Virus record (IMG/VR): IMGVR_UViG_3300007770_000001
Direction: 5' to 3' (one strand)
DNA from: a virus
Taxonomy: Duplodnaviria > Caudoviricetes
DNA: 64,000 bases
In this document: positions 18,726-58,571 of the stretch, one piece after another
Layout: every line of letters begins with the position of its first letter
Numbering within the stretch: the stretch's first letter is position 1
Position numbers and translations under genes: made by a program
The notes under the pieces: model-generated
The model's database searches: none
Told to the model about the DNA's origin: nothing
Seen by the model: the letters and a program-made list of their open reading frames with translations, nothing else

Positions 18726-18740
18726 CAATATCCGAGCTAT
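18726..18740 (+). promoter_or_regulatory. putative late promoter (CAATA-N6-CTAT variant)
   Basis: CAATA tccgag CTAT, about 26 nt before the 18767 start. Confidence 0.55.
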
Positions 18741-18766
18741 GGGAAGGGCCACGGCAGGAGTTGCGC

Positions 18767-19081
18767 GTGGCGAAACATGTCCCATCTGTTGTTCGGGTTG
18801 CCCTGGCGAAAAGGGTCGCAGAGCGGTGGGTCCGGGAAAACTCCCGTGCGGAGTACCGACTCTCTGTTTTCGGGATGGGCGGTGGGATTCGCAACCTCCC
18901 GTCTCTCATGAGGTCGTTTCGGGACGGGTGTAGCAAGCTCGGCTCCTTGGAGTCTGTGTCAGACTTGGGCATCTTTGTCCGAGGAGACCGGATGGACCTC
19001 CGAAGCGCGGACCGGGAGAAGCTCGCCGCGCTTGACAAGTGGCTCACCAAGAAGGGGTGTGAAACCTCTGGGGTCTGGTAG
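18767..19081 (+). CDS. hypothetical virion-region protein with KRVAERW motif
   Basis: GTG after AGGAG (TTG at 18761 is an alternative start); downstream of a late-type motif; abuts the next gene. Confidence 0.65.
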   Translation: MAKHVPSVVRVALAKRVAERWVRENSRAEYRLSVFGMGGGIRNLPSLMRSFRDGCSKLGSLESVSDLGIFVRGDRMDLRSADREKLAALDKWLTKKGCETSGVW

Positions 19082-19504
19082 ATGCAGCTGGCCCAAGCAG
19101 AGTTCACGTACACCTCGGTCGCCGGGTCCGACACATACACATTCACAATTGTACAGAATTCGGCAGGGAAGATCCTGGTCCGGGACATCCAGGACCCCTA
19201 CGGCATGGTCGTCTCTCCGTATACCCAGATCCCCCAATCGGTCACGGATGACATCGCCTCGGCGATGACCCAGGTGGAGGATATCTTGGCTGTCTCCAGT
19301 TCCATCAACGGCACCCTCACGTTTGCTGCGGAGACCTCCAAGAGCGTCACGTTCTCAGAGGCCCTCTCGGGAACGGACTACCGAGTGCATCTCTCCTCTG
19401 ATCTCTTCACGGCCCTTCGGATTACCAGCAAGACGGTCTCTGGGTTCACAGTTGAGGCTGCTGCTGTGGTGACGGGATCCGTCGGGTACGACGTCCTCCT
19501 GTAA
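19082..19504 (+). CDS. small structural protein; C-terminal beta domain shared with the 37239 protein
   Basis: GTLTF..TSKSVTF....TDYRVHL...ITSKTVSGFTVEAAAVVTGSVGY aligns by eye with the 37239 C-terminus. Confidence 0.7.
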   Translation: MQLAQAEFTYTSVAGSDTYTFTIVQNSAGKILVRDIQDPYGMVVSPYTQIPQSVTDDIASAMTQVEDILAVSSSINGTLTFAAETSKSVTFSEALSGTDYRVHLSSDLFTALRITSKTVSGFTVEAAAVVTGSVGYDVLL

Positions 19505-19505
19505 C

Positions 19506-19520
19506 CGGTAGCCTCACTAT
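19506..19520 (+). promoter_or_regulatory. putative late promoter CGGTA-N6-CTAT
   Basis: CGGTA gcctca CTAT, 30 nt before ATG 19550. Confidence 0.7.
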
Positions 19521-19549
19521 CCTCTACGGACCCCAGAATTGGAGCCCTC

Positions 19550-20248
19550 ATGTCCAGCCATCTCCTCCCCTTCGAAGTTCGCCAGATCCAGGCGTCCCTC
19601 ACCACTCATCGTGCTCGCTTCAAGGAAGGTCCTGAGGGCAAGAAGGAGTTCAAGAAGTGGCTGTCCGAGCAGTCCAAGGACTTCCAGGACACCTGGAAGG
19701 AGATGAAGGACAAGTATGGCGACCAGATCAAGGCCGCCTCTGATGAGCCGGCGGGGGACAAGGTGGCCTCCCTGGACGACCAGATCCGCCTCCGCATCGC
19801 CAACCGTCTCAAGGCGCGCTCTACGGAGATCCGCCGGCAGGCAGAGCTCATTCAGGAGCGCGCTGTACTGATCGCTGCCTCGGTGGACGGCACTGTCTCC
19901 GACAAGACAGCGGGGGAGGTCTCCTCCCACATCTGGCAGCTCGAGCAGGGGCTGGAGAACTGGCTGTACAAGAACCTGCGCTGGACGGAGCTTCGCCACC
20001 TGGACAGGGCCATCGGCCAGTTCATCCAGGCAGTCGAGGCTGCAGAGCAGCGCGCCTACACGGACCAGCTCAACCGCAACGCGTCTGAGGTCCAGGACAC
20101 CATCGGGGAGACCAAGTCTGGTCCTCTGACCCTTCCGGACAACAAGGAGGGGCTGGAAGGCCAGTTCACCCAGAAGGACCTCTCCGAGCTCCTCGGAGAG
20201 GTCGGTGGCGCCAAGAAGGCTGCCGAGTCCATCACTTGGATCGACTGA
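19550..20248 (+). CDS. putative internal head protein, helical
   Basis: Late motif upstream; KAAS and KVAS motifs; strong codon bias. Confidence 0.7.
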   Translation: MSSHLLPFEVRQIQASLTTHRARFKEGPEGKKEFKKWLSEQSKDFQDTWKEMKDKYGDQIKAASDEPAGDKVASLDDQIRLRIANRLKARSTEIRRQAELIQERAVLIAASVDGTVSDKTAGEVSSHIWQLEQGLENWLYKNLRWTELRHLDRAIGQFIQAVEAAEQRAYTDQLNRNASEVQDTIGETKSGPLTLPDNKEGLEGQFTQKDLSELLGEVGGAKKAAESITWID

Positions 20249-20332
20249 AGAACTGATGTGCTTGACTTTGACCCGCTCCAGGGATTCCGTCCCGTCCGGA
20301 TCGCCGGTCTGGTCCTCCCCCAAGTGTCTGTG

Positions 20333-22534: not shown

Positions 22535-22549
22535 CGGTTCTCCGTTTAT
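22535..22549 (+). promoter_or_regulatory. putative late promoter CGGTT-N6-TTAT
   Basis: CGGTT ctccgt TTAT upstream of the sheath gene. Confidence 0.65.
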
Positions 22550-22618: not shown

Positions 22619-25600
22619 ATGAGCTTTCCCGGCGACACATACGCTCCTCCGGGCGTATACACCCAGACCTTCTTCGACAATCCCCTCCAGGGAATCTCGG
22701 CCAGTCTCCGGATCCCCCTGCTCCTGGGGACGGGGTCGGAGTCGCTCTTCCAGGACGCCCTTGAGGTGGTCCGGGGTTCGAGCTCTTCCTCCGACCAGCG
22801 GGTCGTGGATGAGGATCTCTCTGGTCGGGCGGTCGTATCCGTCTCCGAGTCTGGGGAGGTCACCCTCGGTGCCTTCAACGGAAGCCTGAAGCGCGTCCAG
22901 GTCAAGAACTTCCCCATCGTCAACGGCAACGGCACGGGGACGACGGCTACCAACTCCTCCAAGATCCGCGTCACCATCGCAGGGAACCCTGTGGTGGTCC
23001 TCGCGATCGATGGAGCCAAGGGCATTCTGACTCTCTCGACGGCCCCCAAGCTGGGCGAAGAGACTCTGGCCACCTACTTCTTCAACCGCACCGATACGCT
23101 GGTCACGGATACCCTGTCCGACCAGGTCACCTCGGATGCTCCCGAGATCTACGGGACGGCGGACCAGAACTACGACATCACCACGGACGTGAACGACACC
23201 CTTGAGTTCACAGTGGACTCCGAGGATGCGGTCACGGTCACCCTGTCCGAGTCTCCCACTGGTGGCTGGACGGCGGCCCAGATCGCCGCGTTCATCAACA
23301 GCGACGCCTCGGGAACCTCTCTGTCCGCGACGACGGCTGAGGATTCCCAGGGTCGGACGGTCCTGTACCTGACGGCGGACCGGGACATCGTGGTGGGCTC
23401 CGGCTCGGCGAACACGACCCTGGGTCTGACCACGGGCACCGATACCGCCCGCAACAAGACCTTCTTCACCTTCCAAGGACCCATCGTCGACGGAACCAAC
23501 GGGGGCATCACCTCCACCGATCCGGCCGATGTGACAGTGAAGGTGGACGGGACGCAGGTCATCCCCGAGTCCCTGGACGGAGCCTCTCGCACCTTCACTC
23601 TCGGGTTCGCCCCGGAGCCCGGCGCGGTCGTCACCTGTCAGTACTACTTCAACAGCTGGCAGGATACTTTCGACCACCTGCAGCACCGGAACATCACGGC
23701 GATCACCCAGGCGGGTCTGACTCCCGACCGGAAGGACTACACCAGCGGAACCGACTTCATCCTCAAGGACGACAAGATCCTCTGGGGGACTGCCTCCCTG
23801 GTTGAGTCTGGGGTTCACACCTCTGGGGCGACGTACTTCAACGACACCCAGGTGTCCACGACACTGGTGGATGCACGCCAGTACCTGGCCGAGTGCGCGG
23901 CCTACGTCGACACCTCGGTCAACCCGCCCCTCGAGGATCGGAAGACCTTCACCCTGCCTCTGGTCGCGACGACGGGGAATGGGCGCAACTCCCTGATTGA
24001 CTCCGACACCTTCACCGACGTGGCCAATGGTCGGGTGGGTCTCCCCACCAACCGACCTGATCTCGTCCTGGTCTACTGGGGCTACAGCCTCAGCGATGCG
24101 GTGGAGCGAGGGGCCGTCGAGGTCACCAAGGTCGACTCCGACAACTCTCGGGTGACTCTGGCCAGCGCTGTCCCGGTCGGCGCCTCTGTCTACGCCACCT
24201 TCTACTACAACACCATCCAGGACCAGGAGTACACCCTCACCGTCGATACCGAGGGTGGTTCGGGTGTCGGTGTCTACAGCGTGGCCAACGAGGACGGGGA
24301 CTCCCTGTACACGGCTCTCTTCTCCTCCAAGAGCGCGGGTCTGGCCACCATCCAGATCCAGTTCCCGAGCGGCGCGGAGAGCACGGCGGATACTCGCTTC
24401 GAGACTCCGTTCGATGCGACCAGCTACGTCGGTCCTGTCGAGGAGGACGTCACCGTCACGTTCGCGACCCAGAACGCGACCTTGGGGTCCTACACCGTCC
24501 CCGGTGCCGGACCCTACTACATCGCACCGGGCGCCAGTGACAACTTCGACATCATCGTCGATGGAGCCACCCTGACCGGGGGCCATGTCGATCTCTCCGA
24601 CCCGATCGGTTCTGGGTCGGGATTCTTCGCTCAGATGGTGGGCAACGAGATCGAGTACTCCGCCGCATCCGGCGGAACCTCCTTCGTGGTGGACTCTACC
24701 AACAACACCATCGACCTGATGGTGGACGGGGTCCTGCTCAACGCGATCGCTCTGGATGACTCCACCAGCATCACCGCGAGCTTCACCAACGTGATCAACC
24801 AGGTGGCCTTCGGGGTCTACGGAGCCACGGCTTCCTCCGGCGGGGCGGCGACCATCGTCATCCCGAACGGTTCCTACGCCTCCGGAACCGATGACTACTA
24901 CATCGGCTGGGAAGTGGTTGTCACTGGAGGGCTCGGGGCTGCTGCAACCATCCGGACTGTCACCGACTACGTGGCGTCGACCAAGACCCTGACCCTGGAC
25001 GGAGGCACCTACGACGGAACCTCGGTCTTCTCTCTGTACAACCCGGACAACGCCCCCTACATGACGGGAGCCACTCGGTTCCTCTCTGCGGTCACGATCA
25101 CGGCAGGGGAGTACGATGAGCTCCAGATCAGCGTCACGGGATCAACGACGGGCCAGACCACTCTCGACTGCGCTGGTGGCGATGCGATCGTAGCCGGAAC
25201 CTACACGACTGCCACGGCTCTGGCTGCTGCGGTCCAGACTGCAATCGACGCGGCGATCTCAACAGCTGCTGCTGCGTGTGTCATCACCGTTGGAGTAGAT
25301 ACCAGCGGACGTCTGACGTTCTCCCTGATCCCGGACCCGACCGATACGGAAGGTGCGTACCTGGAGTTCGTGGCTCAGACGGCGGGCGAGGACTTCGCTC
25401 TCCTCGCAGGGCTGGACACCGACGCTGCGGCCCAGTCCGGACAGGCCAAGCTGTTCGCGGGCCCCATCGCGCGGGTCTACTCTCTGGGCGCCTCCCCCTA
25501 CCTGACCGACCGTATCATCCTCCGCAACCGGCTCATCCCTGGCCAGACCGGCTCGATGGATGGGGAGTTCATCAAGGGCTTCTGTCAGCTGGAGGTTCTG

Positions 25601-27870: not shown

Positions 27871-29790
27871 ATGTCGCAACGTGTCTCGAACCCCAACCGC
27901 AGGGTTCCGCACCGCTCTCCCAAGAAGAACCCCACGCCTCCTGATTCTGTTCTAAGGGAAGCGTGGGGTAGGGATCTCCCTCTCAAGAGGACGGCCCAAG
28001 ACTTGGGCATTCCTCATGTTCGTCTGAGAAAGAACTGGGTCCGTCTCTTTGGCCTCGATGTTTACAAGGCGAGAGGGAAGAGACTCCAGGCAGAGTCAGC
28101 GGCTCGTGTCTGCAGGGAGAACGCGAAGACCCGGACCTATCGAACCGTTCAGGTTCCTTGCTCGAAGTGCGCTGTCTCCCAGGACCTACGTGCAAACCAG
28201 GCAGCGCACCTGGACCGGAGCAAGTTCGTCTGTGATGATTGTCGGTACGATCGAGCCTGTCCAGTTTGTCAGAAGAGAGTCTCCGGGGCTGTGGGCTTGT
28301 CCGCCCATCTCTCCCGCTCGAAGGACGAGGCTCACCGAGCCTACCAGGACCAGCAGCGGGCATCCAAGTGGGAGGGGAAGACCGAGCCTCGGGACTTCGT
28401 GACCTGTCGGGAGTGTGGGTTCCGAGGGGAGACTCTCGCCAATCACATCCAGAAGCACGGTCTCACTGCTGCCACCTATCGGGAGAAGTACGGAGAATCC
28501 ACCCCTATCCGTTCGGACGCGTGTCGTGAGAACCGGAGTGCGGCTATCAAGAAGGCTCTGTCCATTCAGGACAGGACGGGAACGAAGGAGACCACTTGCC
28601 CTGACTGCGGATGTCCCCATCAGGTGAACAAGCACTACGGTCCTCGTCATGACCACCGCTGTGGAGAGTGTCGAGCCTGGGCAGAGGCTTTGCGGTGGGA
28701 GAATCTTCGGGAACCGTTCGACTACGTGGAGTGTGTAGAGTGTGGCTACCGGGCTGAGAACCTGACCTCTCATATCACGAACGCCCACCCCACCTATCGA
28801 GAGGACTACCCTGAGGTAGTGATCGTTGCTCTGAACTCACCTATCCGAGACAAGTCCGAACTCCGAGGAAGAGTCCTCTCGGAGGAGACCCGACGCCGGA
28901 TGTCAGTGAACGCGGGTCGGTGGAACAAGGGGCTCACGAAGGACACCCACCCTTCCCTACAGGCTATCTCCGAGAAGATGGTAGGACGCGTTCCTTGGAA
29001 CAGAGGGCTCACCCGAGAAACAGATCCCCGAGTCCAGGCCGCAGCAGCCAAGATTCGTCTCTACGTGGGAGAGAACCGGCCGTGGGACAACGGTCTCCGT
29101 ATAGATCTCTCCTCTGAGGACATGGCTCCTGTCCTCGACTCCAAGGGCCGGGTGGATTGGAAGAAGGTTTCGGAGCAGGGTCTTCCCGGAACAGCTGTTC
29201 GCAGATACATGGACGAGCACGACCTCAAGGTCTCTCCTGACAACAGGAGAGCAGCCTCGGACGCTCAGATCATCCGTTTGGACAAGGAAGTGTTCGAGCC
29301 CTTCAAGCTCAAGAACGGCAAAGTTGATCGGCGGAGAGCGGCTGAGGGAATTGGTCATGGAGTTGGAGTCATCACCCGAGAAGCTCTCCGCCATGGTATA
29401 GAAATCGCACATCGGAGGGTTGCCCAACCAAAATGCCTCCAGGCCATCTCCAAGGCCCTTGGAGATTCTACATTCACCGAGGAGTGGAAGGACTGGAGGT
29501 TCGTCTCCTTGAAGGGCTTCCGCTATCGATACGACGGTTTCTTCCCAGCCCACAACCTTGTTGTGGAGTTCCAGGGCTATCAGCACTACACCTGGCCCAA
29601 CCGATACCACAAGAGCTACTCTCAGTTCCTCGCAGGGCGTCAGCGGGACCGGCTCAAGCGGGGGCTCGTCGAGGCTGTCCCGGACTTGGTGTTCCTGGAG
29701 GTTCGGGAGGATGAACCCTACGATGATGTCTCCTACCTCCAGGGCCGTTTAGTTCAGTTGGGAGTTTCCCCTTGCCTCCGCGAGACGTAA
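27871..29790 (+). mobile_element. putative free-standing homing endonuclease: multiple Zn fingers, WNKGLT repeats, C-terminal Vsr/DUF559-like PD-(D/E)XK domain
   Basis: Several CxxC units, CRECG...NHIQKHGLTAATYREKYG, WNKGLTKDTHP and WNRGLTRETDP, C-terminal YRYDGFFPAHNLVVEFQGYQHY...RDRLK; codon usage weaker than the sheath. Confidence 0.7.
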
Positions 29791-30326: not shown

Positions 30327-30692
30327 ATGTCCGAAGTCAACCTCCGACCTCTCCTCCGAACTATCGGCCGTGTTGCTCGGTTCTATCCAAGCGGACAAGA
30401 CCGAGGGAGTTGGTCCTATTCGAAGGCGTTCATTCGCCGGAACATGTCTTGGGTGTTCGAGGAAGGCATCGACCTCGGGGAGCTCTTCAACGCGACCCCT
30501 GAAGTACTTCAGAAGTACAGCCTCTCCGCTTGGGGTGGCCTGACTGCTCCCCGAAGAGCAGAGGCCGAGATAGCTCTACAGCTGTTGGAGGCAGACCAGC
30601 CGGTTTCCAAGCAGGAACTCGAGCGTCTCAAACCCGCGCGGAAAGACCACCGACGCAGAAGTTCCCGGAGCAGGAGGCGTCGTCGACGGTAG
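30327..30692 (+). CDS. hypothetical protein with Arg-rich C-terminus
   Basis: 121 aa ending HRRRSSRSRRRRRR; CGGTAAT just upstream. Confidence 0.65.
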   Translation: MSEVNLRPLLRTIGRVARFYPSGQDRGSWSYSKAFIRRNMSWVFEEGIDLGELFNATPEVLQKYSLSAWGGLTAPRRAEAEIALQLLEADQPVSKQELERLKPARKDHRRRSSRSRRRRRR

Positions 30693-30701
30693 GATCGCTA
30701 T
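30687..30701 (+). promoter_or_regulatory. putative late promoter CGGTA-N6-CTAT
   Basis: CGGTA ggatcg CTAT overlapping the CGG TAG end of the previous gene. Confidence 0.7.
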
Positions 30702-30716: not shown

Positions 30717-31367
30717 ATGGAAGATCTCAGATCCATTTCCGTCCGTGTCGCTCGGAGCCACCGCCAAGCTCGAGCCCCAGTGGCTCTCCTGCGGCAGCGA
30801 ACTCAGTTCTCCTGTATGGCGACGTCTATGACGATGTGCCTCCGCGCGTTGGGGCATCAGTCCAATGAGGACGAGGTCAACAAGGTGATGGGAGCTACTC
30901 CTGCACGAGGCGCTTCCTGGGAGCAGGCCCTCGCCACCGCCCAGCACTATGGTTGCCGAGCAACCCTGACCACCCCCTCTACGGTCATGCAGCTACAGGG
31001 GTGGACGGACGCAGAGAAGCCGGTGATGATCGCGTGGAACCCTGAGGGGCGAGACTGGTCCCACGCTTCCTGTGTGTTCGACGTGGCGCCGGGTCTTCCA
31101 GACCCCATCCCTCCGGAGGCGGTTGTCCAGGGCTCGGGAGAGGGACTCTACATCTGGGTAGCGGATCCGAATATTCCCCACCCTGAGAAGCTCATCCGCA
31201 TCGTCCATGAGGACGTGTTCTATTCGAAGTGGTACGAGAAGTGGCCTCGCTATCTGGTGCGCCGGCCTGCCCTCATGTTGGAGAGGGAGATCACCTCTGG
31301 AGGCCGTCAGGTGATGGCATCTTCCGAGTCCCATCCGGAAAGGGCAGCTCGCCTGAACGGGCGGTAG
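30717..31367 (+). CDS. papain-like peptidase (C39-like)
   Basis: RQRTQFSCMATS (Q and catalytic C), WSHASCVFDV (catalytic H, downstream D); N-terminal VRVARSH. Confidence 0.75.
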   Translation: MEDLRSISVRVARSHRQARAPVALLRQRTQFSCMATSMTMCLRALGHQSNEDEVNKVMGATPARGASWEQALATAQHYGCRATLTTPSTVMQLQGWTDAEKPVMIAWNPEGRDWSHASCVFDVAPGLPDPIPPEAVVQGSGEGLYIWVADPNIPHPEKLIRIVHEDVFYSKWYEKWPRYLVRRPALMLEREITSGGRQVMASSESHPERAARLNGR

Positions 31368-31376
31368 ATCCGCTAT
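31362..31376 (+). promoter_or_regulatory. putative late promoter CGGTA-N6-CTAT
   Basis: CGGTA gatccg CTAT, 25 nt before ATG 31401. Confidence 0.7.
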
Positions 31377-31402
31377 TGGACCTCTCTCACGGGAGGTCCA
31401 AT
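31375..31402 (+). promoter_or_regulatory. RBS/start-occluding hairpin overlapping the late promoter
   Basis: ATTGGACCTC tctcacgg GAGGTCCAAT: perfect 10-bp stem; the 3' arm holds GAGG of the SD and the AT of ATG 31401. Confidence 0.7.
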
Positions 31403-31973
31403 GTCTCGAAGGCTCATCGGAGGGCAGAAGCCGTTCACGGTTCTGGTCGCTCATTTCACCGGCCAGACGGACTCTCGGGGCAACCCGGTCAAGTCCCGTT
31501 CTGCCATGACCATGCAGCATTTCCCCGAAGTGGCTCGGGCCAACGGGGTGGAATCTCTCCCCCATCAGGGAAGGACCCCGGGCCTCCGGACCCGTGTGGG
31601 GCATGCCAGCTTCACCACTGACGGTGTTCCGGTCTCAGCCACGGGGACCATTACCGTCACGGACACCGCTCTCGTACACCCCACCCGGGTGCACTTGGGC
31701 TCCTTCGTCCTGACGGCCGGCGAGGATTTCGCCCTCACGGGAACGACAACGGATGTCGCTCTGGCCCTCTCCAACGCGATCGACAACCTTCCGGGATACA
31801 GCGGGACTCCAGTTGCGAACGTGATCACCGTGTCCGGACCCACCGGTCCTATCGGAAACGAGGCTCTGTTCAAGGCAACGGGGTCCTCTGCGTATCTCCT
31901 CACCTTCTCCCCGACCAACGGAGCCCTGTCCGGGGCGGAACCTGCCATTGGCCCCATCACGAGCGTCTCGTAG
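31401..31973 (+). CDS. structural protein with a sheath-insert-like beta domain
   Basis: ATGTITV...VLTAGEDF...TTTDVALALSNAI...VANVITVSG resembles the middle domain of the 37239 protein. Confidence 0.7.
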   Translation: MSRRLIGGQKPFTVLVAHFTGQTDSRGNPVKSRSAMTMQHFPEVARANGVESLPHQGRTPGLRTRVGHASFTTDGVPVSATGTITVTDTALVHPTRVHLGSFVLTAGEDFALTGTTTDVALALSNAIDNLPGYSGTPVANVITVSGPTGPIGNEALFKATGSSAYLLTFSPTNGALSGAEPAIGPITSVS

Positions 31974-34640: not shown

Positions 34641-34643
34641 TCC

Positions 34644-37195: not shown

Positions 37196-37210
37196 CGGTA
37201 CGCTGCCTAT
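37196..37210 (+). promoter_or_regulatory. putative late promoter CGGTA-N6-CTAT
   Basis: CGGTA cgctgc CTAT, 29 nt before ATG 37239. Confidence 0.7.
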
Positions 37211-39256: not shown

Positions 39257-40492
39257 GTGCACTACGAGCTCTCCGATTCCATCAAGCGTCGGATCATCCT
39301 GGAGCTCCGGGAGTTCTGGGCGCAAGACCCCAAGTACAGGGATTCCCTGGTCGGGAACATCCAGGGCCGACACTCATTTGATGAGAGGCCTCAACAGGCG
39401 CTGGTAGTCAAGGGAGCCTCGGCTCTCCCTATCCGATTCTCCGCGGACAACTTCCAGGGGACGGTGGTCTCCTATTGCTCTCTGTTCAAGACGGCGGCCC
39501 AGCCCGGCACCTCTGTGGAATGGGTTCGGGAGGATGTCCGGGCGATCCAGAAGAACGGGGGTGTGTTCCCATCGGAAGCAGGGATCTACTACATAGAGGT
39601 GCGGCGTGAGGAGTACGCCTGGCAAGGAGTGCCGCGCCAGTACCTGGTCTTCTATGTAGACCCCCTCTTGTCGGTCCTGGACGAATCTCCCTCCAAGAGC
39701 GCGGTGGATCCCCGGATCTACACAGTGTCTGCAGGGTCCTTTCATCCAGGATCTCTGGCAGTCTATGAGATGCCTGGGAACCTTCCCCTCACGGATGGGA
39801 TCAACTTCTCCTCGGACCCCATTACAGGGGAAATCACTCTCGTCCGCCCTCTCCCGACCCAGTCCAGCCTGTCCGTCGACTACAGGTATGCTGGGACCAG
39901 CACAGGCCCCTTCCCTGTAGAGGAGAACGGAGCTAACAACTCAGCGATCCCCGGAGTGATCCTGGCCTTCGGCCGACGCGCTCAAGAAGGGGATGTGATG
40001 GCCGTGCGGGTCTCCAACCTCCGGGAACCTTCGGCGCGGGAGTACGGGGGTCGGTTCGAGGTCTCCCTTGATATCGATGTCCTTGCTCGGGATGTCCATG
40101 CCCAGGCAGAGATAGCGGACCGTACCTTCATGTACCTCCAGGCGGAGCTCAGGGACCGCCTCTCCTTCGAGGGCATCGAGATCGATCAGGTCTCCAATTC
40201 AGGAGAGGCGGAGGAATCCTACGACGAGAACGAGGACTCCCTCTACTACACCGCTTCCTTGTCTTTGACCATCATGACCAATTGGTCAATCCGTCTCCCG
40301 CTGGGCCCCGCGTTCACTCGAATCATCGCCAACACAGTGGAGGCTGAGCAAATCGCTTCGGCTCTCGATGACGACCAGCTCATAGACATGGGATCCTCGA
40401 CCGGGTTGGTCATGGCAGAGCAGCTGGGTCTCCAGCCCCTGCAGGATCCTTGGTTCCGGAACCGTTCCCGGAACTACGAGATGATTCGGTAG
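39257..40492 (+). CDS. putative neck/tail-completion protein
   Basis: C-terminal SLDIDVLARD...EIADRTFMYL...YYTASLSLTIMTNW resembles tail terminator folds; central beta insert. The function is inference. Confidence 0.55.
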   Translation: MHYELSDSIKRRIILELREFWAQDPKYRDSLVGNIQGRHSFDERPQQALVVKGASALPIRFSADNFQGTVVSYCSLFKTAAQPGTSVEWVREDVRAIQKNGGVFPSEAGIYYIEVRREEYAWQGVPRQYLVFYVDPLLSVLDESPSKSAVDPRIYTVSAGSFHPGSLAVYEMPGNLPLTDGINFSSDPITGEITLVRPLPTQSSLSVDYRYAGTSTGPFPVEENGANNSAIPGVILAFGRRAQEGDVMAVRVSNLREPSAREYGGRFEVSLDIDVLARDVHAQAEIADRTFMYLQAELRDRLSFEGIEIDQVSNSGEAEESYDENEDSLYYTASLSLTIMTNWSIRLPLGPAFTRIIANTVEAEQIASALDDDQLIDMGSSTGLVMAEQLGLQPLQDPWFRNRSRNYEMIR

Positions 40493-40501
40493 ATGAACTA
40501 T
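40487..40501 (+). promoter_or_regulatory. putative late promoter CGGTA-N6-CTAT
   Basis: CGGTA gatgaa CTAT, 29 nt before ATG 40530. Confidence 0.7.
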
Positions 40502-41803: not shown

Positions 41804-42136
41804 ATGGATCTCAAGAAGTTCCTCAAGAAGCACGTCGGTCGCAAACGGATCAAGACCAAGAATCTGCTGGGCAAGGACTACCACTCGGTCAAGGGGAACT
41901 TCTCCTATGAGCTGAAACGGGCCCTCGAGAAGGAGGGGTTCAAGGTGTTCGACTCCCACTTCAGCAGCTCGACCATCTACCGGATGACCGACGGTACGTT
42001 CCACATAGAGCTCTCGTACAGCCCCAGCAACCAGACCACCTCCATCGGCGAGTCCGGGTTGCTTCCTCCGCGGAACCGCGCGGCTCGTCTGAAGCTCATC
42101 CTGGCCTCTGAGGGCTTCGACCTCCCGAAGCGGTAG
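41804..42136 (+). CDS. hypothetical protein with C-terminal ILASEG motif
   Basis: AGGAAGGA RBS; ends RAARLKLILASEGFDLPKR. Confidence 0.75.
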   Translation: MDLKKFLKKHVGRKRIKTKNLLGKDYHSVKGNFSYELKRALEKEGFKVFDSHFSSSTIYRMTDGTFHIELSYSPSNQTTSIGESGLLPPRNRAARLKLILASEGFDLPKR

Positions 42137-42145
42137 ACCACCTAT
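42131..42145 (+). promoter_or_regulatory. putative late promoter CGGTA-N6-CTAT
   Basis: CGGTA gaccac CTAT, 27 nt before ATG 42172. Confidence 0.7.
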
Positions 42146-50053: not shown

Positions 50054-50068
50054 CGGTACCAGTTTTAT
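50054..50068 (+). promoter_or_regulatory. putative late promoter CGGTA-N6-TTAT
   Basis: CGGTA ccagtt TTAT in the gap before 50127. Confidence 0.7.
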
Positions 50069-51559: not shown

Positions 51560-52371
51560 CTCCGGGCATTTATTCCATCCTCAACACCCAGAATGGGAAG
51601 AGGTACGTCGGGAGATCCAAGAATATGGAGGCCCGGTGGCGAGGCCATGAACGTTCGCTGGTGGCGGGGTCTCATTGCAACAACCATCTCCAGAGGTCCT
51701 GGAACCTTTACGGATCCTCCACCTTTCAGTTTGAGATTCTTGAGGTAGTCCCGGATGCGATGACGCGGGCCCACAGGGAAGCGTTCTGGTGTGGCCACTT
51801 CGATACCCACAACCGAGACAAGGGCTACAATATCGGGGATGTCCGGACAGATGAAGGGTCGGTTTACGTTTCAGACGAAGTTCGTTTGAAACGTTCTGCA
51901 GCGCGGCTTGGGAAGACTATGTCGGCAGAGACGCGAAGGAAGATTTCGATCGCCAACAAGGGGCGAAAGAGGACATCTGAGGTTTGCGAGAGGATTCGGC
52001 AAGCACGTACCGGGACCAAGGCTTCCGAAGAAACCCGGAAGAAGATGTCCGTGTCTCGTAGGAAATGGAACCACAGCCCGGAGACAGTGGCGAAGATAGC
52101 TGACTCCAACCGAGGACAGAAGAGATCCCCTGCCATTTGCCAGGCTATGTCAGAAGCCCGAAAGGGGAGGCCTGGACGCCCTCACACCGCTGAGACCAAA
52201 GCCAAGATCTCAGAGAAACTCCAGGGGCAGAAGCGCACGCCGGAGCAGTGTGCGCGGATTTCCGTCTCGAAGCAGGGGCCTCGGAAACCGCATTCTGAGG
52301 AAACCCGGAACAAGATAGCGGCTTCTCTCAGAGCCTATTGGGCTCGGCGGAAGAGTTCCGACATCGTCAAC
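51521..52371 (+). repeat. 21-bp synonymously recoded direct repeat (KSSDIVN) flanking the GIY-YIG gene
   Basis: aaa agt tct gat atc gtc aat at 51521 versus aag agt tcc gac atc gtc aac at 52351. Confidence 0.85.
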
Positions 52372-52390: not shown

Positions 52391-53848
52391 ATGGCTCACT
52401 CCAAGAAAGCATATGCGATGCTCACCCATCCCCGGATCACCGGGCGTGGTTGGGGCAAAATGCGTCGGAAGGCGACGTCCGGGGCTTCCTCGGCCAACCT
52501 GTCGGATCAGGCTCGTCTGATCCTCGGCGGGCCTCTGGATCCCGACAAGTACCTCTTCTCGCACTGCACCATCGTGGCGTCGGTGGATATCGATCCCGTC
52601 CCGGGTGTCCGTATGGGCACTGTCAAGGTAGGGAACTCGACCATTGACCGTCGCTATGGCGACTACTACATCAGGCCCACCAGTTCCCAGTATGTGAACA
52701 ACAACGGGGACTCTTGGTCTCGCCCAGTGCTGCTGGCCAGCTATCCGACCTTCGTCGGGGGCCACAACTTCCTCGAGCATGTCCAGGTTGCCTCCAAGTC
52801 CAAGGGCCGGATCATCGATGCGGTCGCTCGGGATGTTGGGGACTCGGTCTACATCGACATCCTGGTCGCGACCAATCGGAAGCATGCTTCCCTGATCTCG
52901 GACATCAAGTCCGGACGTCTCAACACCCTCTCGATGGGCTGTACCACCGACTTCACGATCTGCACCAAGTGCGGACACGTGGCGGTGGACGAGACCGACC
53001 TCTGCGACCACGTCAAGGTTGCCAAGCTCGACACCTTCCTCGACGAGCGGAACGAGCGTCGGATCATCGCCGAGCTCTGCGGCCACATCTCTCACAACGA
53101 GACGGGGGGTGTCAACTTCATCGAAGCCAGCTGGGTTGGGATCCCGGCTTTCACTGGCGCGGTGATGCGAAACATCCTGCAGATCGCCAACCTCGATGAG
53201 CGCGAGTCCGAGATTCGCCGGATCCTCGCCAGTCAAGGTCCCTCGTGGTCGGAGGCTGCCATGATGAAGGCAGCCAAGTTCGACCCCCAAAGGTTCCTGG
53301 TTGGACAAGGGGACGAGGACAACGAGGATCAAGAGCCAGAGCCAACCCCGGAGCCCGAGACCAAGGACACTCTCCAGAAGCTCGAAGATGACCTGGTTGA
53401 CCGAGTCAAGGACCGCGTGCAGGACCGCCTCCGCTCCGAGATGCGTTCCGATGAGGGTGACAAGACCCTTGGGGACTCCGACTGGCCCAATGACACTCTG
53501 AACAGGGAAGCCCGGACCCGGGTAGCCTCCAACACCCGCCGTCGCTACAAGATCGCGGTGGAAACGGCTCTCCGGCATGCGACCTCTCAGATCGCTCTCG
53601 TCGACTCGGTCGCTCGGATCAACATCGCCCACGATATCCGGATCCCCGTCTCCATCTATCGCGCCGCTCTCGAGGCTGGCTCCTCTTCTCGCTACGCTGG
53701 AACTCAGCAGTACGTGAATCGGATGCAGCACCTCCTGGGTCGCCGCATCAGTCCCGCCGAATTCCGGGTTGTTGTCCGGGTCGGCTCCCTGCTCTCCCAG
53801 TGGGAGCAATTCAACAACCCGCAGTCATCCTCCCCGAGGAGTTCCTAA
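52391..53848 (+). CDS. prohead (capsid maturation) protease with C-terminal extension
   Basis: GGHNFLEH, DAVARD, LNTLSMGC (Ser nucleophile), ICTKCGH..CDH zinc module, EASWV..PAF; upstream of scaffold, decoration and MCP genes. Confidence 0.8.
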   Translation: MAHSKKAYAMLTHPRITGRGWGKMRRKATSGASSANLSDQARLILGGPLDPDKYLFSHCTIVASVDIDPVPGVRMGTVKVGNSTIDRRYGDYYIRPTSSQYVNNNGDSWSRPVLLASYPTFVGGHNFLEHVQVASKSKGRIIDAVARDVGDSVYIDILVATNRKHASLISDIKSGRLNTLSMGCTTDFTICTKCGHVAVDETDLCDHVKVAKLDTFLDERNERRIIAELCGHISHNETGGVNFIEASWVGIPAFTGAVMRNILQIANLDERESEIRRILASQGPSWSEAAMMKAAKFDPQRFLVGQGDEDNEDQEPEPTPEPETKDTLQKLEDDLVDRVKDRVQDRLRSEMRSDEGDKTLGDSDWPNDTLNREARTRVASNTRRRYKIAVETALRHATSQIALVDSVARINIAHDIRIPVSIYRAALEAGSSSRYAGTQQYVNRMQHLLGRRISPAEFRVVVRVGSLLSQWEQFNNPQSSSPRSS

Positions 53849-55020: not shown

Positions 55021-55046
55021 TCGGATCAGGCCACAGAGCCTGATAG

Positions 55047-55088
55047 CTGGCCCGTGGAAGTCCAATCCACGGGCCAGTTCTGTTTTTT
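55047..55088 (+). terminator. rho-independent terminator after the scaffold gene
   Basis: CTGGCCCGTGGA agtccaa TCCACGGGCCAG (12-bp stem) followed by TTCTGTTTTTT; a second 7-bp hairpin ATCAGGC/GCCTGAT lies just upstream. Confidence 0.85.
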
Positions 55089-55122: not shown

Positions 55123-55137
55123 CAATACCGGATTTAT
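55123..55137 (+). promoter_or_regulatory. putative late promoter (CAATA-N6-TTAT variant) for the decoration and MCP genes
   Basis: CAATA ccggat TTAT between the scaffold terminator and 55236. Confidence 0.55.
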
Positions 55138-55904: not shown

Positions 55905-56777
55905 ATGCCCGCAACCAACGCAGTCAAGGCTCGCCTCATCAGCGAGTTCATCGGCACCCAGGCTGGCCGTCACAAGCTCGCCGCGTCGATGACCCAGCCC
56001 CTCCGGCTCCGCCGGGACTACATGGCCGTCGGCCGGAAGACCTTCCTCGTGGAAGAGCTCCCGGATGGCGCGCTGCCCATCTACGACAAGGATCCGGACG
56101 TCACCGCGTACCTGGTCGGTGAGGAAGGCGAGAACATCGTCGCCGTCACCAAGCCCCGGCGCGTGTCCTTCCCGCTGTTCGAGATCGCCTCGAACCCGGA
56201 GATCCCGCTGACGCAGATCAAGGAGCGCCGCTTCGACCTCATCGAGCGCGCCCAGGACCTGGCCCGTGCCCAGATCCAGGCCGCCGAGGACGAGCGCGTC
56301 TTCGCGATCATGGACTCGATCGCCACCAACGGCTTCGACTCCATCGCCGGTGGTGAGAACCCCGACATCCCCGTCGTCGCCCCGATCTCCGGCGCTGTCC
56401 TCGCGGACGCCTTCGCCGCGGTCGAGCAGCACGACCTCCGGGTGGCCCGGGTGTTCATGAACGCCGTCGACTACGCGGACATCCGCAAGTTCGGCCGGGA
56501 CATCCTCGACGTCGAGACCCAGCGCGACCTCATCCAGACCGGCCTCATGGGTCGCCTCTGGGGTGCCAGCGTCATCGTCAGCCGCCTCGTGCCGGCCGGA
56601 TTCGTCTACATCTGCTGCGAGCCCGAGAACTTCGGTCGGATTCCGGTCCGTACCGAGCTCACGGTCCTCAGCGCCGACGACCCGCGCGCCCGCACCATTG
56701 GCTTCAGCGTTTTCGAAAACTTGGGCATCGGGGCCTTCAACCCCAAGGGCCTCTGCCGCCTGACGATCGCACGGTAG
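55905..56777 (+). CDS. major capsid protein (HK97 fold, 290 aa)
   Basis: Extreme codon bias, GAGGAGG RBS, canonical gene order; segments (KLAASMTQPLRLRRDY, FEIASNPEI, QIQAAEDERVF) recall the capsid family of mycobacteriophage Bxz1-like myoviruses, recalled from memory and not searched. Confidence 0.85.
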   Translation: MPATNAVKARLISEFIGTQAGRHKLAASMTQPLRLRRDYMAVGRKTFLVEELPDGALPIYDKDPDVTAYLVGEEGENIVAVTKPRRVSFPLFEIASNPEIPLTQIKERRFDLIERAQDLARAQIQAAEDERVFAIMDSIATNGFDSIAGGENPDIPVVAPISGAVLADAFAAVEQHDLRVARVFMNAVDYADIRKFGRDILDVETQRDLIQTGLMGRLWGASVIVSRLVPAGFVYICCEPENFGRIPVRTELTVLSADDPRARTIGFSVFENLGIGAFNPKGLCRLTIAR

Positions 56778-56801: not shown

Positions 56802-56829
56802 ATGGCCGCCCCCTCTCCGGGGCGGCCAT
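56802..56829 (+). terminator. GC-rich hairpin after the MCP gene (terminator or 3' stabiliser)
   Basis: ATGGCCGCCCC ctctcc GGGGCGGCCAT, 11-bp stem; no U tract. Confidence 0.6.
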
Positions 56830-56856
56830 AGCTGTGTTGGGCATTGTGGGATCAAG

Positions 56857-56863
56857 CGGTAAC
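56857..56863 (+). promoter_or_regulatory. CGGTAAC upstream motif
   Basis: After the MCP hairpin, 19 nt before ATG 56882. Confidence 0.45.
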
Positions 56864-56881
56864 TCCAACCCTGGAGCTACC

Positions 56882-57679
56882 ATGCCCACTACCCATTGCC
56901 TCCCTCCTGAGTTCCCTGCGGGGTTGGATCTCTTCATCGTCTTCACGGACGGGACGGAGATCCATACGCAGACCACGGGGAGGAAGTCTGGGATCCCTGG
57001 CTTCGCGACTACCCACTCTCTACGCCCGAAGACGTTCGACTATGGGGGGTCCTCCTGGGAGACGGGAGATCTGGTGATCCCTCTTGATCGGAGGGAGTTC
57101 TACCTCACCGTCTACGCTGGGAAGGAATCCAGAGTCCCCCAGCGTAGAGAGATCGCAGAGATGTGGGTCGACGGACGCCACGCCATCAGCCAGTACCCCG
57201 TCACAATCGAGGAGCGGGAGGGGGAATCCGGTCGGGAGTTCCGCATCATCTCCCTTCGACGAACCCTGGTGGGAGATTGGACACCTATCGACCAGATCGC
57301 CTTCTCCGGCGGGAAGCCTGAGTACTACGGGATCTCTCTGGGAGGGGCCCCTCCCATCCTCCTGCAGAAGGTCTCCGACACACGGGCGATCCCCGAGAGA
57401 TCCTCTGAAGAACTCCCGTTGGCGGTCCGGGTTCGGGTCCTCCCTATCGGCGCTATCGTCAATGTCAAGACCGAGGCCAAGACTGTGAGAGGCCAGATCG
57501 TCGATGGCTCCACTGACGCAGACGAGATCTACCTCTCTGTGGTGGTAGGGGGATTCCCTCGGGTGTTCTCTCTGGTGATCGACATCGAGGTAGTCCGACT
57601 CTCCTACAAAGCGGAGGACCTCGAAACCGTGATGGAGATCCAGCTCATCGAACTCCCTCCCGAGATGGAGGTCCAGTAG
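56882..57679 (+). CDS. hypothetical protein
   Basis: ATG after GGAG; CGGTAAC motif upstream. Confidence 0.7.
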   Translation: MPTTHCLPPEFPAGLDLFIVFTDGTEIHTQTTGRKSGIPGFATTHSLRPKTFDYGGSSWETGDLVIPLDRREFYLTVYAGKESRVPQRREIAEMWVDGRHAISQYPVTIEEREGESGREFRIISLRRTLVGDWTPIDQIAFSGGKPEYYGISLGGAPPILLQKVSDTRAIPERSSEELPLAVRVRVLPIGAIVNVKTEAKTVRGQIVDGSTDADEIYLSVVVGGFPRVFSLVIDIEVVRLSYKAEDLETVMEIQLIELPPEMEVQ

Positions 57680-58150
57680 ATGGCCATGCTCTGGTTGACC
57701 AAGCCTTCTCACGGGTTCGGCCGGATCACGTACCTCCGTCTGGGCTGGCGTGGGATTCTCGAGGTCTGTCACGACAAGCTGATCATAGAAGAACAGGAGT
57801 ACATGGAGCGGTGGTACTTCCGCACCTTCCTGTTCCAGATACGGCTCCACAAGATCCTGGCCTCAGACGACCCCAAGCGCCCCCTACACGATCATGCGGT
57901 GGGGATGGTATCCCTCATCCTCAAGGGATCCTACAGGGAGGAGACTCCCGAAGGGGACTCTTTCTTCAAGGCTCCTGCGATCAACGTGATTCCGGCGGCT
58001 CGTCCTCACCGGCTCACTCTCGGGCATACTCCGGTCTGGACTCTGGTCCTCACCGGCCGAGCAGTTCGGGAGTGGGGGTTCCTAACCCGCCAGGGCTGGA
58101 TGCATCACGAGCGGTTCTTCGAGAGCCTGGCGGACTCCGAACCTACATAG
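57680..58150 (+). CDS. cupin-fold protein
   Basis: RLHKIL.SD...LHDH...SLILKGSYREE...PHRLTL...WTLVLTG...WGF. Confidence 0.8.
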   Translation: MAMLWLTKPSHGFGRITYLRLGWRGILEVCHDKLIIEEQEYMERWYFRTFLFQIRLHKILASDDPKRPLHDHAVGMVSLILKGSYREETPEGDSFFKAPAINVIPAARPHRLTLGHTPVWTLVLTGRAVREWGFLTRQGWMHHERFFESLADSEPT

Positions 58151-58532
58151 GGTGTCCGTTCAAGTCTTCCTGATCCCAGGGCAGCCTCTTCAAGAGAGTG
58201 AACCCGTGCGCTTCTGCCATAGCACGGGCCTCGTTGAGAGCCTCCCTGCTGGTATCGAAGGGACCGATCTCTGTCTCGGCGGGGTCTTGGATGAACCACT
58301 TATCCCCGTCGGAGAACACCTCGAACTCGCTCAAGGCATTGGGGTTGGCGGGGGCCAAGCTTGACACGGACTCTCGGAAGGCGTAGAACTTCCATCCGTT
58401 GTCTACCTTGACCGGAGGGAGTAGGGGCTTGAAGACCTTCCCCCTGTCCCGGCGGAGGCTCTCCCTCTCCATGATTGCCCTGTTTGTGGGGTCGTCCAAC
58501 AGGGCTGCCATCATTTGGTATCTCTGTGACAT
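58143..58532 (-). CDS. hypothetical protein (only credible minus-strand gene)
   Basis: 129 aa filling an otherwise empty gap; converges on and overlaps the cupin gene end; normal amino-acid composition. Confidence 0.75.
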   Translation of the reverse strand: MSQRYQMMAALLDDPTNRAIMERESLRRDRGKVFKPLLPPVKVDNGWKFYAFRESVSSLAPANPNALSEFEVFSDGDKWFIQDPAETEIGPFDTSREALNEARAMAEAHGFTLLKRLPWDQEDLNGHPM

Positions 58533-58556
58533 GTAGTACTCTACCGAGAAGGGAAG

Positions 58557-58571
58557 CGGTTGCTGGCCTAT
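58557..58571 (+). promoter_or_regulatory. putative late promoter CGGTT-N6-CTAT
   Basis: CGGTT gctggc CTAT, 28 nt before GTG 58599. Confidence 0.65.

What the first reader, a model, noticed from the sequence alone, without database searches (positions are those of the whole stretch)
18726..58571. Compact bipartite late-promoter motif CRRTW-N6-YTAT, 11 copies
Nine CGGTW-N6-YTAT sites (19506, 22535, 30687, 31362, 37196, 40487, 42131, 50054, 58557) and two CAATA-N6-YTAT sites (18726, 55123) lie immediately upstream of virion-module genes. Most are 25-30 nt from the start codon, and I saw none in the replication module. Four upstream genes end in CGG TAG because the motif overlaps their stop. The 15-bp architecture fits neither sigma70 -35/-10 spacing nor the T4 late TATAAATA element.
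Basis: seen in the sequence. Interest (0 to 1): 0.72.

Follow-up and report, generated by a model that had tools for sequence, protein, structure and literature searches.

The report
Conserved late promoter of huge phages
A 15-base signal (CGGTAG, five free bases, CTAT) sits just upstream of the virion genes of this uncultured huge marine phage and of many distant relatives. It is most likely a new class of phage late promoter, read by the host RNA polymerase with a phage-encoded helper.

Summary
An unbiased scan of upstream regions puts CGGT-N7-CTAT first.

- **Consensus:** C-GGT-A-G-N5-(C/T)TAT. Nothing else is conserved from 30 nt upstream to 45 nt downstream.
- **Position:** the last T lies 24-34 nt before most start codons, so transcripts must start within about 13 nt of it.
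- **Relatives:** a 288-kb relative has 35 copies against 4 for a reversed control. Four more distant huge phages have 10-28 against 0-3; a fifth has none.
- **Transcription-unit heads:** the motif heads units in short divergent intergenic regions, twice back to back. This favours a promoter over an RNA signal.
- **Missing enzymes:** I found no phage RNA polymerase, gp55-type sigma or sigma-54 gene.

The best candidate reader is a conserved gene pair just upstream of the first copy: a NusG paralogue and a sigma-region-4 plus second-HTH protein. The motif follows that gene in at least 43 of 67 distinct loci. This assignment is inferred, and no transcript data exist.

This scan had noted the motif in other windows of this genome, and the same gene pair in one other genome.

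The parts
18726..18740 (+). Motif copy, CAATA variant, 6 nt after the stop of the sigma4-HTH gene and 26 nt before the start at 18767
   Evidence: A motif copy sits at the orthologous spot in at least 43 of 67 relatives. The CAATA form itself recurs in L019 and L002.
19506..19520 (+). Motif copy CGGTAG-N5-CTAT, 29 nt before the ATG at 19550
22535..22549 (+). Motif copy, TTTAT form, with a 69-nt leader before the 1728-aa gene
   Evidence: The orthologous copy in G001 has TTTAT and a leader of about 100 nt.
30687..30701 (+). Motif copy CGGTAG-N5-CTAT. The TAG doubles as the stop of ORF 30327-30692.
   Evidence: It is not found at the orthologous place in G001, so this is the least certain copy.
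31362..31376 (+). Motif copy, 24 nt before the ATG at 31401. The TAG is the stop of the upstream gene. A 13-bp leader hairpin follows.
   Evidence: The relative has a copy before the orthologue.
37196..37210 (+). Motif copy, 28 nt before the ATG at 37239, immediately after the portal gene
   Evidence: The orthologous copy is in L001 at 8338.
40487..40501 (+). Motif copy, 28 nt before the ATG at 40530. The TAG is the stop of gene 39257-40492.
   Evidence: The orthologous copy is in L001 at 11229.
42131..42145 (+). Motif copy, 26 nt before the ATG at 42172. The TAG is the stop of gene 41804-42136.
   Evidence: The orthologous copy is in L001 at 11904.
50054..50068 (+). Motif copy, TTTAT form, with a 58-nt leader. 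It heads the operon that holds the prohead protease and scaffold genes.
   Evidence: The orthologous TTTAT copy in G001 has a leader of about 67 nt.
55123..55137 (+). Motif copy, CAATA...TTTAT form, with a 98-nt leader. It heads the operon that holds the major capsid gene.
   Evidence: It is preceded by the terminator at 55045-55079. G001 has a CAATAC...TTTAT copy about 97 nt before the orthologue.
58557..58571 (+). Motif copy, 27 nt before a GTG at 58599 that opens the 1.3-kaa tail-fibre-like gene
   Evidence: The G001 orthologue has a copy 27 nt before its ATG.
17576..18118 (+). NusG paralogue (NGN plus KOW), candidate partner of the late factor
   Evidence: The model has mean pLDDT 81. Foldseek gives full-length matches to NusG and to ops-bound RfaH, E 5e-7 to 1e-5. 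Profile hits to KOW and NusG. It is adjacent to the HTH gene in 63 of 67 loci.
18111..18719 (+). Protein with a sigma-region-4 domain plus a second HTH domain, and no region 2. Leading candidate for the protein that reads the motif.
   Evidence: Pfam Sigma70_r4, 2.6e-9. In the model, residues 37-104 match SigR region 4 (Z 10.4) and a second helical DNA-binding-like domain covers 104-185. More than 1,200 relatives, all from uncultured sequences.
55045..55079 (+). Intrinsic terminator (14-bp stem plus a T run) that closes the scaffold operon just before motif copy 55123

Best explanation
The motif is the core promoter of the virion-gene (presumed late) transcription class of this huge phage and of a large clade of uncultured huge phages. 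The whole signal is 15 bp: C-GGT-A-G, five free bases, then (C/T)TAT. The two blocks lie one helical turn apart (11 bp centre to centre), with no -35 box and no further -10 box.

Transcription should begin within about 13 nt after the last T, because the Shine-Dalgarno sequences start 14-20 nt after it.

The phage appears to have no RNA polymerase of its own, so the host core enzyme must be redirected by a phage protein. The leading candidate is the 202-aa protein encoded at 18111-18719, a sigma region-4 domain followed by a second HTH domain. It may work with the NusG paralogue whose gene overlaps it by 8 nt. I infer that one HTH reads each block.

What is shown: the motif, its conservation, its position and orientation, its presence at the heads of transcription units, and the absence of recognisable phage polymerase, gp55 and sigma-54 genes. 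What is inferred: promoter activity itself, late timing, and which protein reads the motif.
For: 1. **Not chance.** 11 copies against 0.82 expected, all on the gene strand. It is the top dyad in an unbiased upstream scan.

2. **Position-locked.** 9 of 15 copies (P 7e-14) and 24 of 41 copies (P 4e-32) have a start 15-40 nt downstream in the 126-kb record and the 288-kb relative. Over 100 sites, only the 15 bp are conserved.

3. **Conserved across relatives.** G001 has 35 copies against 4 for the reversed control. Four more distant huge phages have 28/1, 10/0, 10/1 and 10/3; a fifth, G006, has 0 against 5. Orthologous genes keep their copy, including the TTTAT and CAATA variants and their long leaders. 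Across 67 loci the N6 spacing is specific: 320 copies against 176-228 at other spacings, and 34-44% are followed by SD plus an ORF against about 15% for controls.

4. **Sits where promoters must be.** It occupies many sides of divergent intergenic regions. Two pairs are back to back inside 84- and 90-bp gaps, and some sit back to back with the other promoter class. A strong terminator precedes copy 55123. Sigma-70-like promoters in the module are no more frequent than chance.

5. **No phage polymerase or alternative sigma found.** There were no hits for multisubunit or T7-type polymerase, gp55 (phrog_234) or the sigma-54 DNA-binding domain in up to six records, one of them rated 100% complete.

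6. **Candidate reader.** The motif starts 0-23 nt after the stop of the sigma4-HTH gene in at least 43 of 67 distinct loci, across 33-67% GC. The order clamp loader, NusG paralogue, sigma4-HTH is kept in 63 of 67 loci. The second HTH's recognition helix (QGxVRHRF) is near-invariant, as is YTAT. The sigma-4 helix varies between clades, as does the first block.
Against: - No transcript 5' end, expression timing or binding datum exists. No RNA holder of this sequence was listed.
- The sigma4-HTH protein has no region 2, so nothing recognisable would melt the DNA.
- If its sigma-4 domain sits on the beta flap as in normal holoenzymes, the motif would be expected near -35. That would put the start site too close to, or inside, the Shine-Dalgarno sequences.
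- Each relative also carries at least one region-2-like sigma ORF that could be the real reader.
- The link between helix variation and motif variation is confounded by phylogeny: there are only three clades, and a one-site-per-genome Fisher test gives P 0.016, uncorrected.
- In the most distant clades I could not recover a late motif de novo.
- The loci were chosen because they carry the HTH gene, so co-occurrence has no negative control.
- The motif also precedes a non-structural gene.
Confidence: 0.6

Rival explanations
1. This would be an ops-like loading site for the phage NusG paralogue, not a promoter. Polymerase arriving from upstream would pause here. The non-template strand CGGTAG would fold as in the RfaH-ops complex and recruit the NusG paralogue, which would then suppress termination through the long virion operons.
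For: The first block CGGTAG is identical to ops positions 3-8 of GGCGGTAGCGTG. In ops, C3:G8 closes a hairpin and T6 flips into RfaH (PMC5995543). Across the clade the invariant bases are C1, T4 and A/T5, which correspond to ops C3, T6 and A7. A true NusG/RfaH-fold protein is encoded just upstream. The motif lies on the non-template strand of every gene it precedes.
Against: - The ops flanks (GG before, CGTG pause after) are not conserved.
- YTAT, the most invariant part, has no counterpart in ops.
- Nothing is conserved upstream that could be the promoter.
- Back-to-back divergent copies inside 84-90-bp gaps leave no room for upstream promoters.
- Dozens of copies, some only 675 nt apart, are unnecessary for a factor that stays bound after one loading.
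- A fixed distance of about 28 nt to the start codon is not a property of ops.
- The G at position 3, which RfaH reads base-specifically, varies freely between clades.
Confidence: 0.12
2. It is a promoter, but it is read by something other than the sigma4-HTH protein. Candidates are the phage's region-2-containing sigma factor, a host alternative sigma, or an unrecognised phage RNA polymerase hidden among the large proteins without family hits.
For: G001 has a clear Sigma70_r2 ORF (E 1.8e-18), and four other relatives have weak region-2-like ORFs. Several 1,000-1,800-aa proteins have no family match, and very diverged phage polymerases escape Pfam. The sigma4-HTH protein lacks a melting domain.
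Against: - The second promoter class, GTTTCC-N16-CGTAAC, has the classic sigma2/sigma4 layout. It is the natural target of the region-2 sigma.
- A conserved motif across phages of 33-67% GC from many habitats argues against a host-specific sigma.
- The large proteins lack a DFDGD-type motif, and the ones that could be annotated look like virion proteins.
- The T7-type search had no positive control, so that absence is weak.
Confidence: 0.18
3. It is an RNA-level signal in polycistronic transcripts, such as a processing site, a 5' stabiliser or a translation element. GGUAG-N5-CUAUC can form a 5-bp hairpin with one G-U pair.
For: The motif is a quasi-palindrome: GGTAG ... CTAyC, with a perfect TAG-N5-CTA core. 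In 16 of 81 sites it is the best local hairpin. It is strand-specific and close to ribosome-binding sites.
Against: - There is no compensatory change. Position 3 varies G/T/A/C between phages while its would-be partner T15 never changes.
- The stem sequence is conserved and the loop is free, the opposite of known RNA hairpin signals.
- The closing C after CTAT is present in only 39% of sites.
- Copies at the heads of divergent units would not be transcribed at all unless they are themselves promoters.
Confidence: 0.05

Closest known systems
T4-type late promoters (TATAAATA) read by gp55 with gp33 and the gp45 sliding clamp (PMC2988020)
   Same: Both are one compact block close to the start site with no -35 box. 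Both are repeated in front of many virion genes at short, fixed distance, and both depend on phage proteins that re-programme the host core polymerase. Here the candidate factor genes also lie directly after a clamp-loader gene.
   Different: The sequence differs and is bipartite, with two blocks 11 bp apart. No gp55-family gene was found in five records. The candidate factor carries sigma region 4 rather than region 2. Clamp dependence is untested.
Sigma-54 promoters (-24 TGGCAC, N5, -12 TTGC)
   Same: The 15-bp layout is identical (six bases, five free, four bases), with GG at positions 2-3.
   Different: The -12 GC is replaced by TA. No sigma-54 DNA-binding domain was found in the phage records. 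No enhancer-binding ATPase was looked for. Only the layout is alike.
RfaH/ops (GGCGGTAGCGTG), PMC5995543
   Same: The CGGTAG core is identical, it lies on the non-template strand, and a NusG-family paralogue is encoded next to the first copy.
   Different: The ops flanks and pause signal are absent. The extra invariant YTAT block has no ops counterpart. The motif sits at the heads of transcription units and at a fixed distance from start codons, and there are many copies per genome.
Late promoters of the non-virion polymerases of AR9/phiKZ-type jumbo phages (PMC7598289)
   Same: These are very short promoters that hug the start site in jumbo phages.
   Different: They need phage multisubunit polymerases. 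No beta or beta-prime homologue was found here or in a complete relative.
Phage sigma factors with their own promoters (phiEco32 gp36, PMC12276001; SPO1 gp28 and gp33/34, from my own knowledge)
   Same: A phage-encoded, sigma-related protein switches host polymerase to a phage promoter class. This genome's other class, GTTTCC-N16-CGTAAC, is of exactly this kind.
   Different: Those promoters keep the -35/-10 layout with a spacer of about 17 bp, and their sigmas keep region 2. Neither holds for this motif or its candidate reader.
Lambda Q and its late promoter PR' (from my own knowledge)
   Same: The regulator gene is followed within a few bases by the first late promoter.
   Different: Q is an antiterminator acting at one sigma-70 promoter. 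Here there are dozens of promoters and no sigma-70 boxes.

Membership tests
Sigma-70-type promoter | -35 and -10 hexamers separated by 16-18 bp, with a conserved T at -7 | tested here: not met
   Only 15 contiguous bp are conserved over 100 sites. T is depleted three bases after TAT. Consensus scans of the module found no more than chance.
T4-type late system | TATAAATA element at -10 | tested here: not met
   The consensus is C-GGT-A-G-N5-YTAT.
T4-type late system | A gp55-family late sigma encoded by the phage | tested here: not met
   phrog_234, the family that T4 gp55 hits at 2.9e-69, gives no match at E<=1 in five records, one rated 100% complete. Very diverged homologues cannot be excluded.
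T4-type late system | Dependence on a loaded sliding clamp | not testable with these tools
   There is only synteny: clamp loader, NusG paralogue and sigma4-HTH lie in that order in 63 of 67 loci.
Sigma-54 promoter | GG at -24 and GC at -12, ten bases apart | tested here: not met
   The GG and the layout are present, but GC is replaced by an invariant TA.
Sigma-54 promoter | A sigma-54 protein available to the phage | tested here: inconclusive
   No Sigma54_DBD was found in five phage records. The unknown hosts may have one.
Promoters of phage-encoded RNA polymerases | A phage gene for a multisubunit or T7-type polymerase | tested here: not met
   PF00623, PF00562 and PF00940 gave no match in G000 and G001, and PF00623 gave none in four more records including a complete one. 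The PF00940 search had no positive control. There is no DFDGD motif.
RfaH/ops | The 12-nt ops element with its pause-inducing flanks | tested here: not met
   Only the core CGGTAG matches. The positions before C1 and after G6 carry no information (PMC5995543).
RfaH/ops | Location inside a transcribed leader, downstream of a separate promoter | tested here: not met
   Back-to-back divergent copies lie in 84-90-bp gaps, and nothing is conserved upstream.
RfaH/ops | A NusG paralogue encoded by the same genome | tested here: met
   Window 17576-18118 folds as NGN plus KOW and matches NusG and RfaH chains.
Sigma-70 family factor (for the protein at 18111-18719) | Region 2 (core binding and -10 melting) as well as region 4 | tested here: not met
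   Pfam finds only Sigma70_r4 and r4_2. The model shows a sigma-4 domain plus a second HTH-like domain. The structure searches matched region 4 only and no region-2 domain, though the part outside residues 37-104 was barely tested.

The most novel reading that the evidence does not exclude
At these promoters the host core polymerase would be programmed by a two-piece substitute for sigma. The phage NusG paralogue would sit on the beta-prime clamp helices, the site sigma region 2 normally occupies, and read the CGGTAG block much as RfaH reads ops. The sigma4-plus-HTH protein would hold the flap and read YTAT. A NusG/Spt5-family protein would then take part in promoter recognition and initiation, which is not known in bacteria or their viruses.
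Probability: 0.12. Interest if true: 0.9.

Novelty: new variant of a known kind. Interest (0 to 1): 0.62.

Why it matters
Huge phages without their own RNA polymerase are known only from metagenomes, and how they time their gene expression is unknown. This motif has three uses.

- It gives a sequence handle that marks the virion-gene transcription units in a large clade. The candidate factor family has more than 1,200 members and none is in a cultured phage. That should improve annotation of these genomes.
- It points to a conserved gene pair that can be made and tested in vitro without culturing the phage.
- If the sigma-4-only protein, with or without the NusG paralogue, really directs initiation from a 15-bp signal lacking -35 and -10 boxes, it would be a new way of re-programming bacterial RNA polymerase and a compact orthogonal promoter/factor pair.

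Tried and rejected
- **RNA evidence.** The look-up of sequencing runs listed no RNA holder of window 34000-43900, so no 5' ends could be laid.
- **Cultured relatives.** blastn and tblastn against 50,697 phage records found only one uncultured 485-kb megaphage, so no experimental literature applies. Paper searches on huge-phage sigma factors, late promoters and phage NusG found nothing on this motif.
- **Motif in the most distant clades.** De novo dyad discovery where the sigma-4 helix reads TQAA(V/I)SYRL gave only noise from shared orthologous sequence. How the motif looks there is open. Single sites after the HTH gene suggest CAGTAA/CACTAA-N5-TTTAT and a GTTTCTTYTTAT-like form.
- **Complex prediction.** NusG paralogue with the sigma4-HTH protein, each as an alignment: weak support. 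Score 0.53 against a best control of 0.00. The runs agree in at least 48% of contacts and partner pLDDT is at least 72. At 0.60 or under, the calibration had 7 of 80 solved complexes and both passing mismatches out of 110. I do not count this as evidence either way.
- **Whole-protein fold match for the sigma4-HTH protein.** Foldseek and VIA-align found only single-domain matches.
- **Type I restriction target.** This has the same bipartite format, but it was rejected because copies are concentrated in the few per cent of non-coding DNA and are gene-oriented.
- **Chance or codon artefact.** A looser GGT-N7-CTAT count (15 forward) is not above its reversed control (13 forward). Only with the flanking C and the positional test is the signal clear.
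- **A conserved GT 12-13 nt after YTAT.** This turned out to be the T/A before AGGAG Shine-Dalgarno sequences.

Full report
**What the window is.** The window is bases 8-64007 of a 126-kb IMG/VR virus record with 61% GC, rated about 28% complete. Notes of this scan describe the parent genome as a roughly 339-kb uncultured marine huge phage.
- Bases 1-18.7 kb hold replication genes: a RecD2-type helicase, a Toprim protein and a clamp loader.
- From 18.7 kb on there is a virion module, all on the + strand. It includes the portal gene (35495-37195), prohead protease (52391-53848), major capsid protein (55905-56777) and a tail-fibre-like protein (58665-62582).

None lies before 18726.
- The pattern was written after the fact, so I also ran an unbiased scan of every 4-mer/gap/4-mer dyad in the 80 nt upstream of 131 called genes. 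CGGT-N7-CTAT came first: 10 of its 13 genomic copies are upstream of starts, P 3.5e-10.
- The runner-up is a second, unrelated motif, GTTTCC-N16-(GA)CGTAAC. It has the classic two-box sigma layout and precedes mostly small non-structural genes.
- In the 126-kb record, 9 of 15 CGGT-N7-YTAT copies have a start codon 15-40 nt downstream, where chance gives 1.35% (P 7e-14).
- The four 'CGG TAG' stops are confirmed from ORF ends at 30692, 31367, 40492 and 42136.

**Anatomy.**
- Aligning 100 sites from this record, a 288-kb relative and ten close loci shows information only in C-GGT-A-G-N5-(C/T)TAT: C before GGT 85%, A 68%, G 60%, C over T 83:17. Nothing is conserved from 30 nt upstream to 45 nt downstream, apart from the purine-rich Shine-Dalgarno zone 14-20 nt after YTAT.
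- Start codons lie mostly 24-34 nt after YTAT. Any transcript that carries its Shine-Dalgarno sequence must therefore begin within about 13 nt of YTAT.
- The two blocks are 11 bp apart centre to centre, so they face the same side of the helix.
- The motif is also a quasi-palindrome, GGTAG ... CTAyC. The would-be pairing positions do not co-vary between phages, so I do not read it as a hairpin.
- A subclass with TTTAT and long leaders of 58-100 nt serves the 1728-aa gene, the protease/scaffold operon and the capsid operon. It keeps both features in the relative.

**Conservation.**
- The 288-kb relative G001, about 72% protein identity, has 35 CGGT-N7-CTAT copies against 4 for the reversed control.
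- Of 47 GGT-N7-CTAT copies there, 26 lie 18-40 nt before a called start, and each of these faces the gene that follows it. For the stricter CGGT-N7-YTAT form the count is 24 of 41, P 4e-32.
- Orthologues of the genes at 22619, 31401, 37239, 40530, 42172, 50127, 55236 and 58599 keep a copy. Only 30687 has none.
- Fetching 80 loci (67 distinct, 33-67% GC, contigs up to 536 kb) through the sigma4-HTH protein showed a copy of C-[G/A]-N-T-[A/T]-N6-YTAT starting 0-23 nt after that gene's stop in at least 43 of them. Several more have CGGTG.
- In these loci the N6 spacing stands out: 320 copies against 176-228 for N4, N5, N7 and N8. Between 34% and 44% of copies are followed by a Shine-Dalgarno sequence and an ORF, against about 15% for controls.
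- Whole-record counts of CGNTAG-N5-CTAT in five distant relatives were 28/1, 10/0, 10/1, 10/3 and 0/5 against the reversed control.
- YTAT is the constant part. The first block drifts by clade: CGGTAG, CGTTAG, CGATAG, CGCTAG, CACTAA, CAGTAA, CAATA.
- The two CAATA sites are therefore genuine variants. CAATA-N6-YTAT recurs at the orthologous place in L019, L002 and G001.

**Promoter or something else?** The strongest argument is position at the heads of transcription units.
- In G001, 24 divergent intergenic regions give 48 sides that each need a promoter. By my count from the table, about 17 sides carry this motif and about 13 carry the two-box motif.
- Two regions of 84 and 90 bp carry two copies back to back. 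In one of them the copies share a central CCGG.
- In this record the copy before the 1090-aa gene abuts the -35 box of a divergent two-box promoter.
- Copy 55123 follows a 14-bp-stem terminator.
- G001 also has a promoter triplicated in 19-bp tandem repeats.
- An RNA processing or translation signal, or an ops-like loading site, would need transcription to arrive from upstream. In these places there is nothing upstream to supply it, and no upstream sequence is conserved.

**What reads it?**
- I found no beta, beta-prime or T7-type polymerase in this record, in G001 or (beta-prime only) in four further relatives, one of them rated 100% complete.
- I found no gp55-family sigma and no sigma-54 DNA-binding domain.
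- The motif is shared by phages of very different GC content and habitat. That points to a phage-encoded reader acting on host core polymerase.
- G001 has one clear region-2 sigma. Its natural target is the two-box class.
- The remaining candidate is the overlapping gene pair at 17576-18719, which ends 6 nt before the first motif copy.
- The upstream gene is a true NusG/RfaH-fold protein. Its model has pLDDT 81, and Foldseek matches full-length NusG and ops-bound RfaH at E 5e-7 to 1e-5.
- The downstream gene has a sigma region-4 domain (Pfam 2.6e-9; Z 10.4 to SigR region 4) followed by a second HTH-like domain, and no region 2.
- Its family has more than 1,200 members at 50-64% identity, all from uncultured sequences.
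- The order clamp loader, NusG paralogue, sigma4-HTH is kept in 63 of 67 loci.
- The second HTH's recognition helix is nearly invariant, like YTAT. The sigma-4 helix changes between clades, like the first block. This parallel is suggestive but is not corrected for phylogeny.
- I therefore name this protein as the probable reader, at roughly even odds. How the DNA is opened remains unexplained.

**The ops coincidence.** CGGTAG equals ops positions 3-8, the hairpin that RfaH reads on the non-template strand (PMC5995543), and a NusG paralogue is encoded next door. As a pure elongation-phase loading site this fails on position, copy number, the missing flanks and the unexplained YTAT block. It does keep alive a more radical reading, in which the NusG paralogue helps recognise the promoter.

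**Comparison and novelty.**
- Functionally this is closest to T4 late promoters: a compact block with no -35 box, a phage factor, and many copies before virion genes.
- In layout it is closest to sigma-54 promoters (6 + N5 + 4).
- It meets the defining features of neither, nor those of sigma-70, phage-polymerase or ops elements (see the membership table).
- I found no description of it in the literature I could search.
- First readers of this scan had noted the same motif in two other windows of this genome, and the same gene pair next to a 'late motif' in one other genome.
- I rate it a new variant of a known kind, a phage late-promoter class with its own factor. It is well supported as a sequence feature, but its mechanism is only inferred.

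Noticed in passing
window 2482-2505 and 29766-29789; also nine more places in the 126-kb record: There is a second promoter-like class, GTTTCC-N16-(GA)CGTAAC, 17-41 nt before mostly small non-structural genes on both strands. It has the classic sigma2/sigma4 two-box layout. G001 has a clear Sigma70_r2 ORF at 181006-181203.
   Followed up: partly
window 16183-19504: A gene cassette is conserved in 63 of 67 distinct huge-phage loci: clamp loader, NusG paralogue, sigma4-HTH protein, motif, then two small unknown genes (104 and 140 aa). The closeness of the clamp loader to putative late-transcription genes recalls T4's clamp-dependent late transcription.
   Followed up: partly
window 31373-31403, 37202-37220; L034, L043 and L050 just after their HTH genes: Many leaders fold into a hairpin right after, or even including, the CTAT block, for example a 13-bp stem that covers the SD and start codon at 31401. 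In many relatives the first gene after the HTH gene has a leader hairpin with GTAG(A) in or near the loop.
   Followed up: partly
window 22535, 50054, 55123: A subclass of the motif has TTTAT instead of CTAT and long leaders of 58-100 nt. It serves the 1728-aa gene, the protease/scaffold operon and the capsid operon. Both features are kept at the orthologous sites of the 288-kb relative, which may point to separate regulation.
   Followed up: partly
G001 (L006) 51760-51812, minus strand: The motif with its flanks is triplicated as exact 19-bp tandem repeats, followed by a degenerate fourth unit, in front of one 148-aa gene.
   Followed up: no
window 22619-27805: A 1728-aa protein has no Pfam or PHROG hit, yet it is 58% identical over its full length to the copy in a 40%-GC relative (L002). 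That is unusually strong conservation for an unannotated protein.
   Followed up: no
window 45205-48174: One 989-aa protein combines a 2H phosphoesterase/LigT-like domain, a eukaryotic-type topoisomerase IB core and an inorganic-pyrophosphatase-like domain, in the middle of the virion module.
   Followed up: no
window 27871-29790: A 639-aa ORF carries a ROS/MucR zinc-finger DNA-binding domain (E 2.4e-11) and has a weak homing-endonuclease hit at its C-terminal end.
   Followed up: no
window 55045-55079: This is the only strong intrinsic terminator in 40 kb of the virion module (14-bp stem plus a T run). It lies between the scaffold gene and the capsid operon.
   Followed up: no
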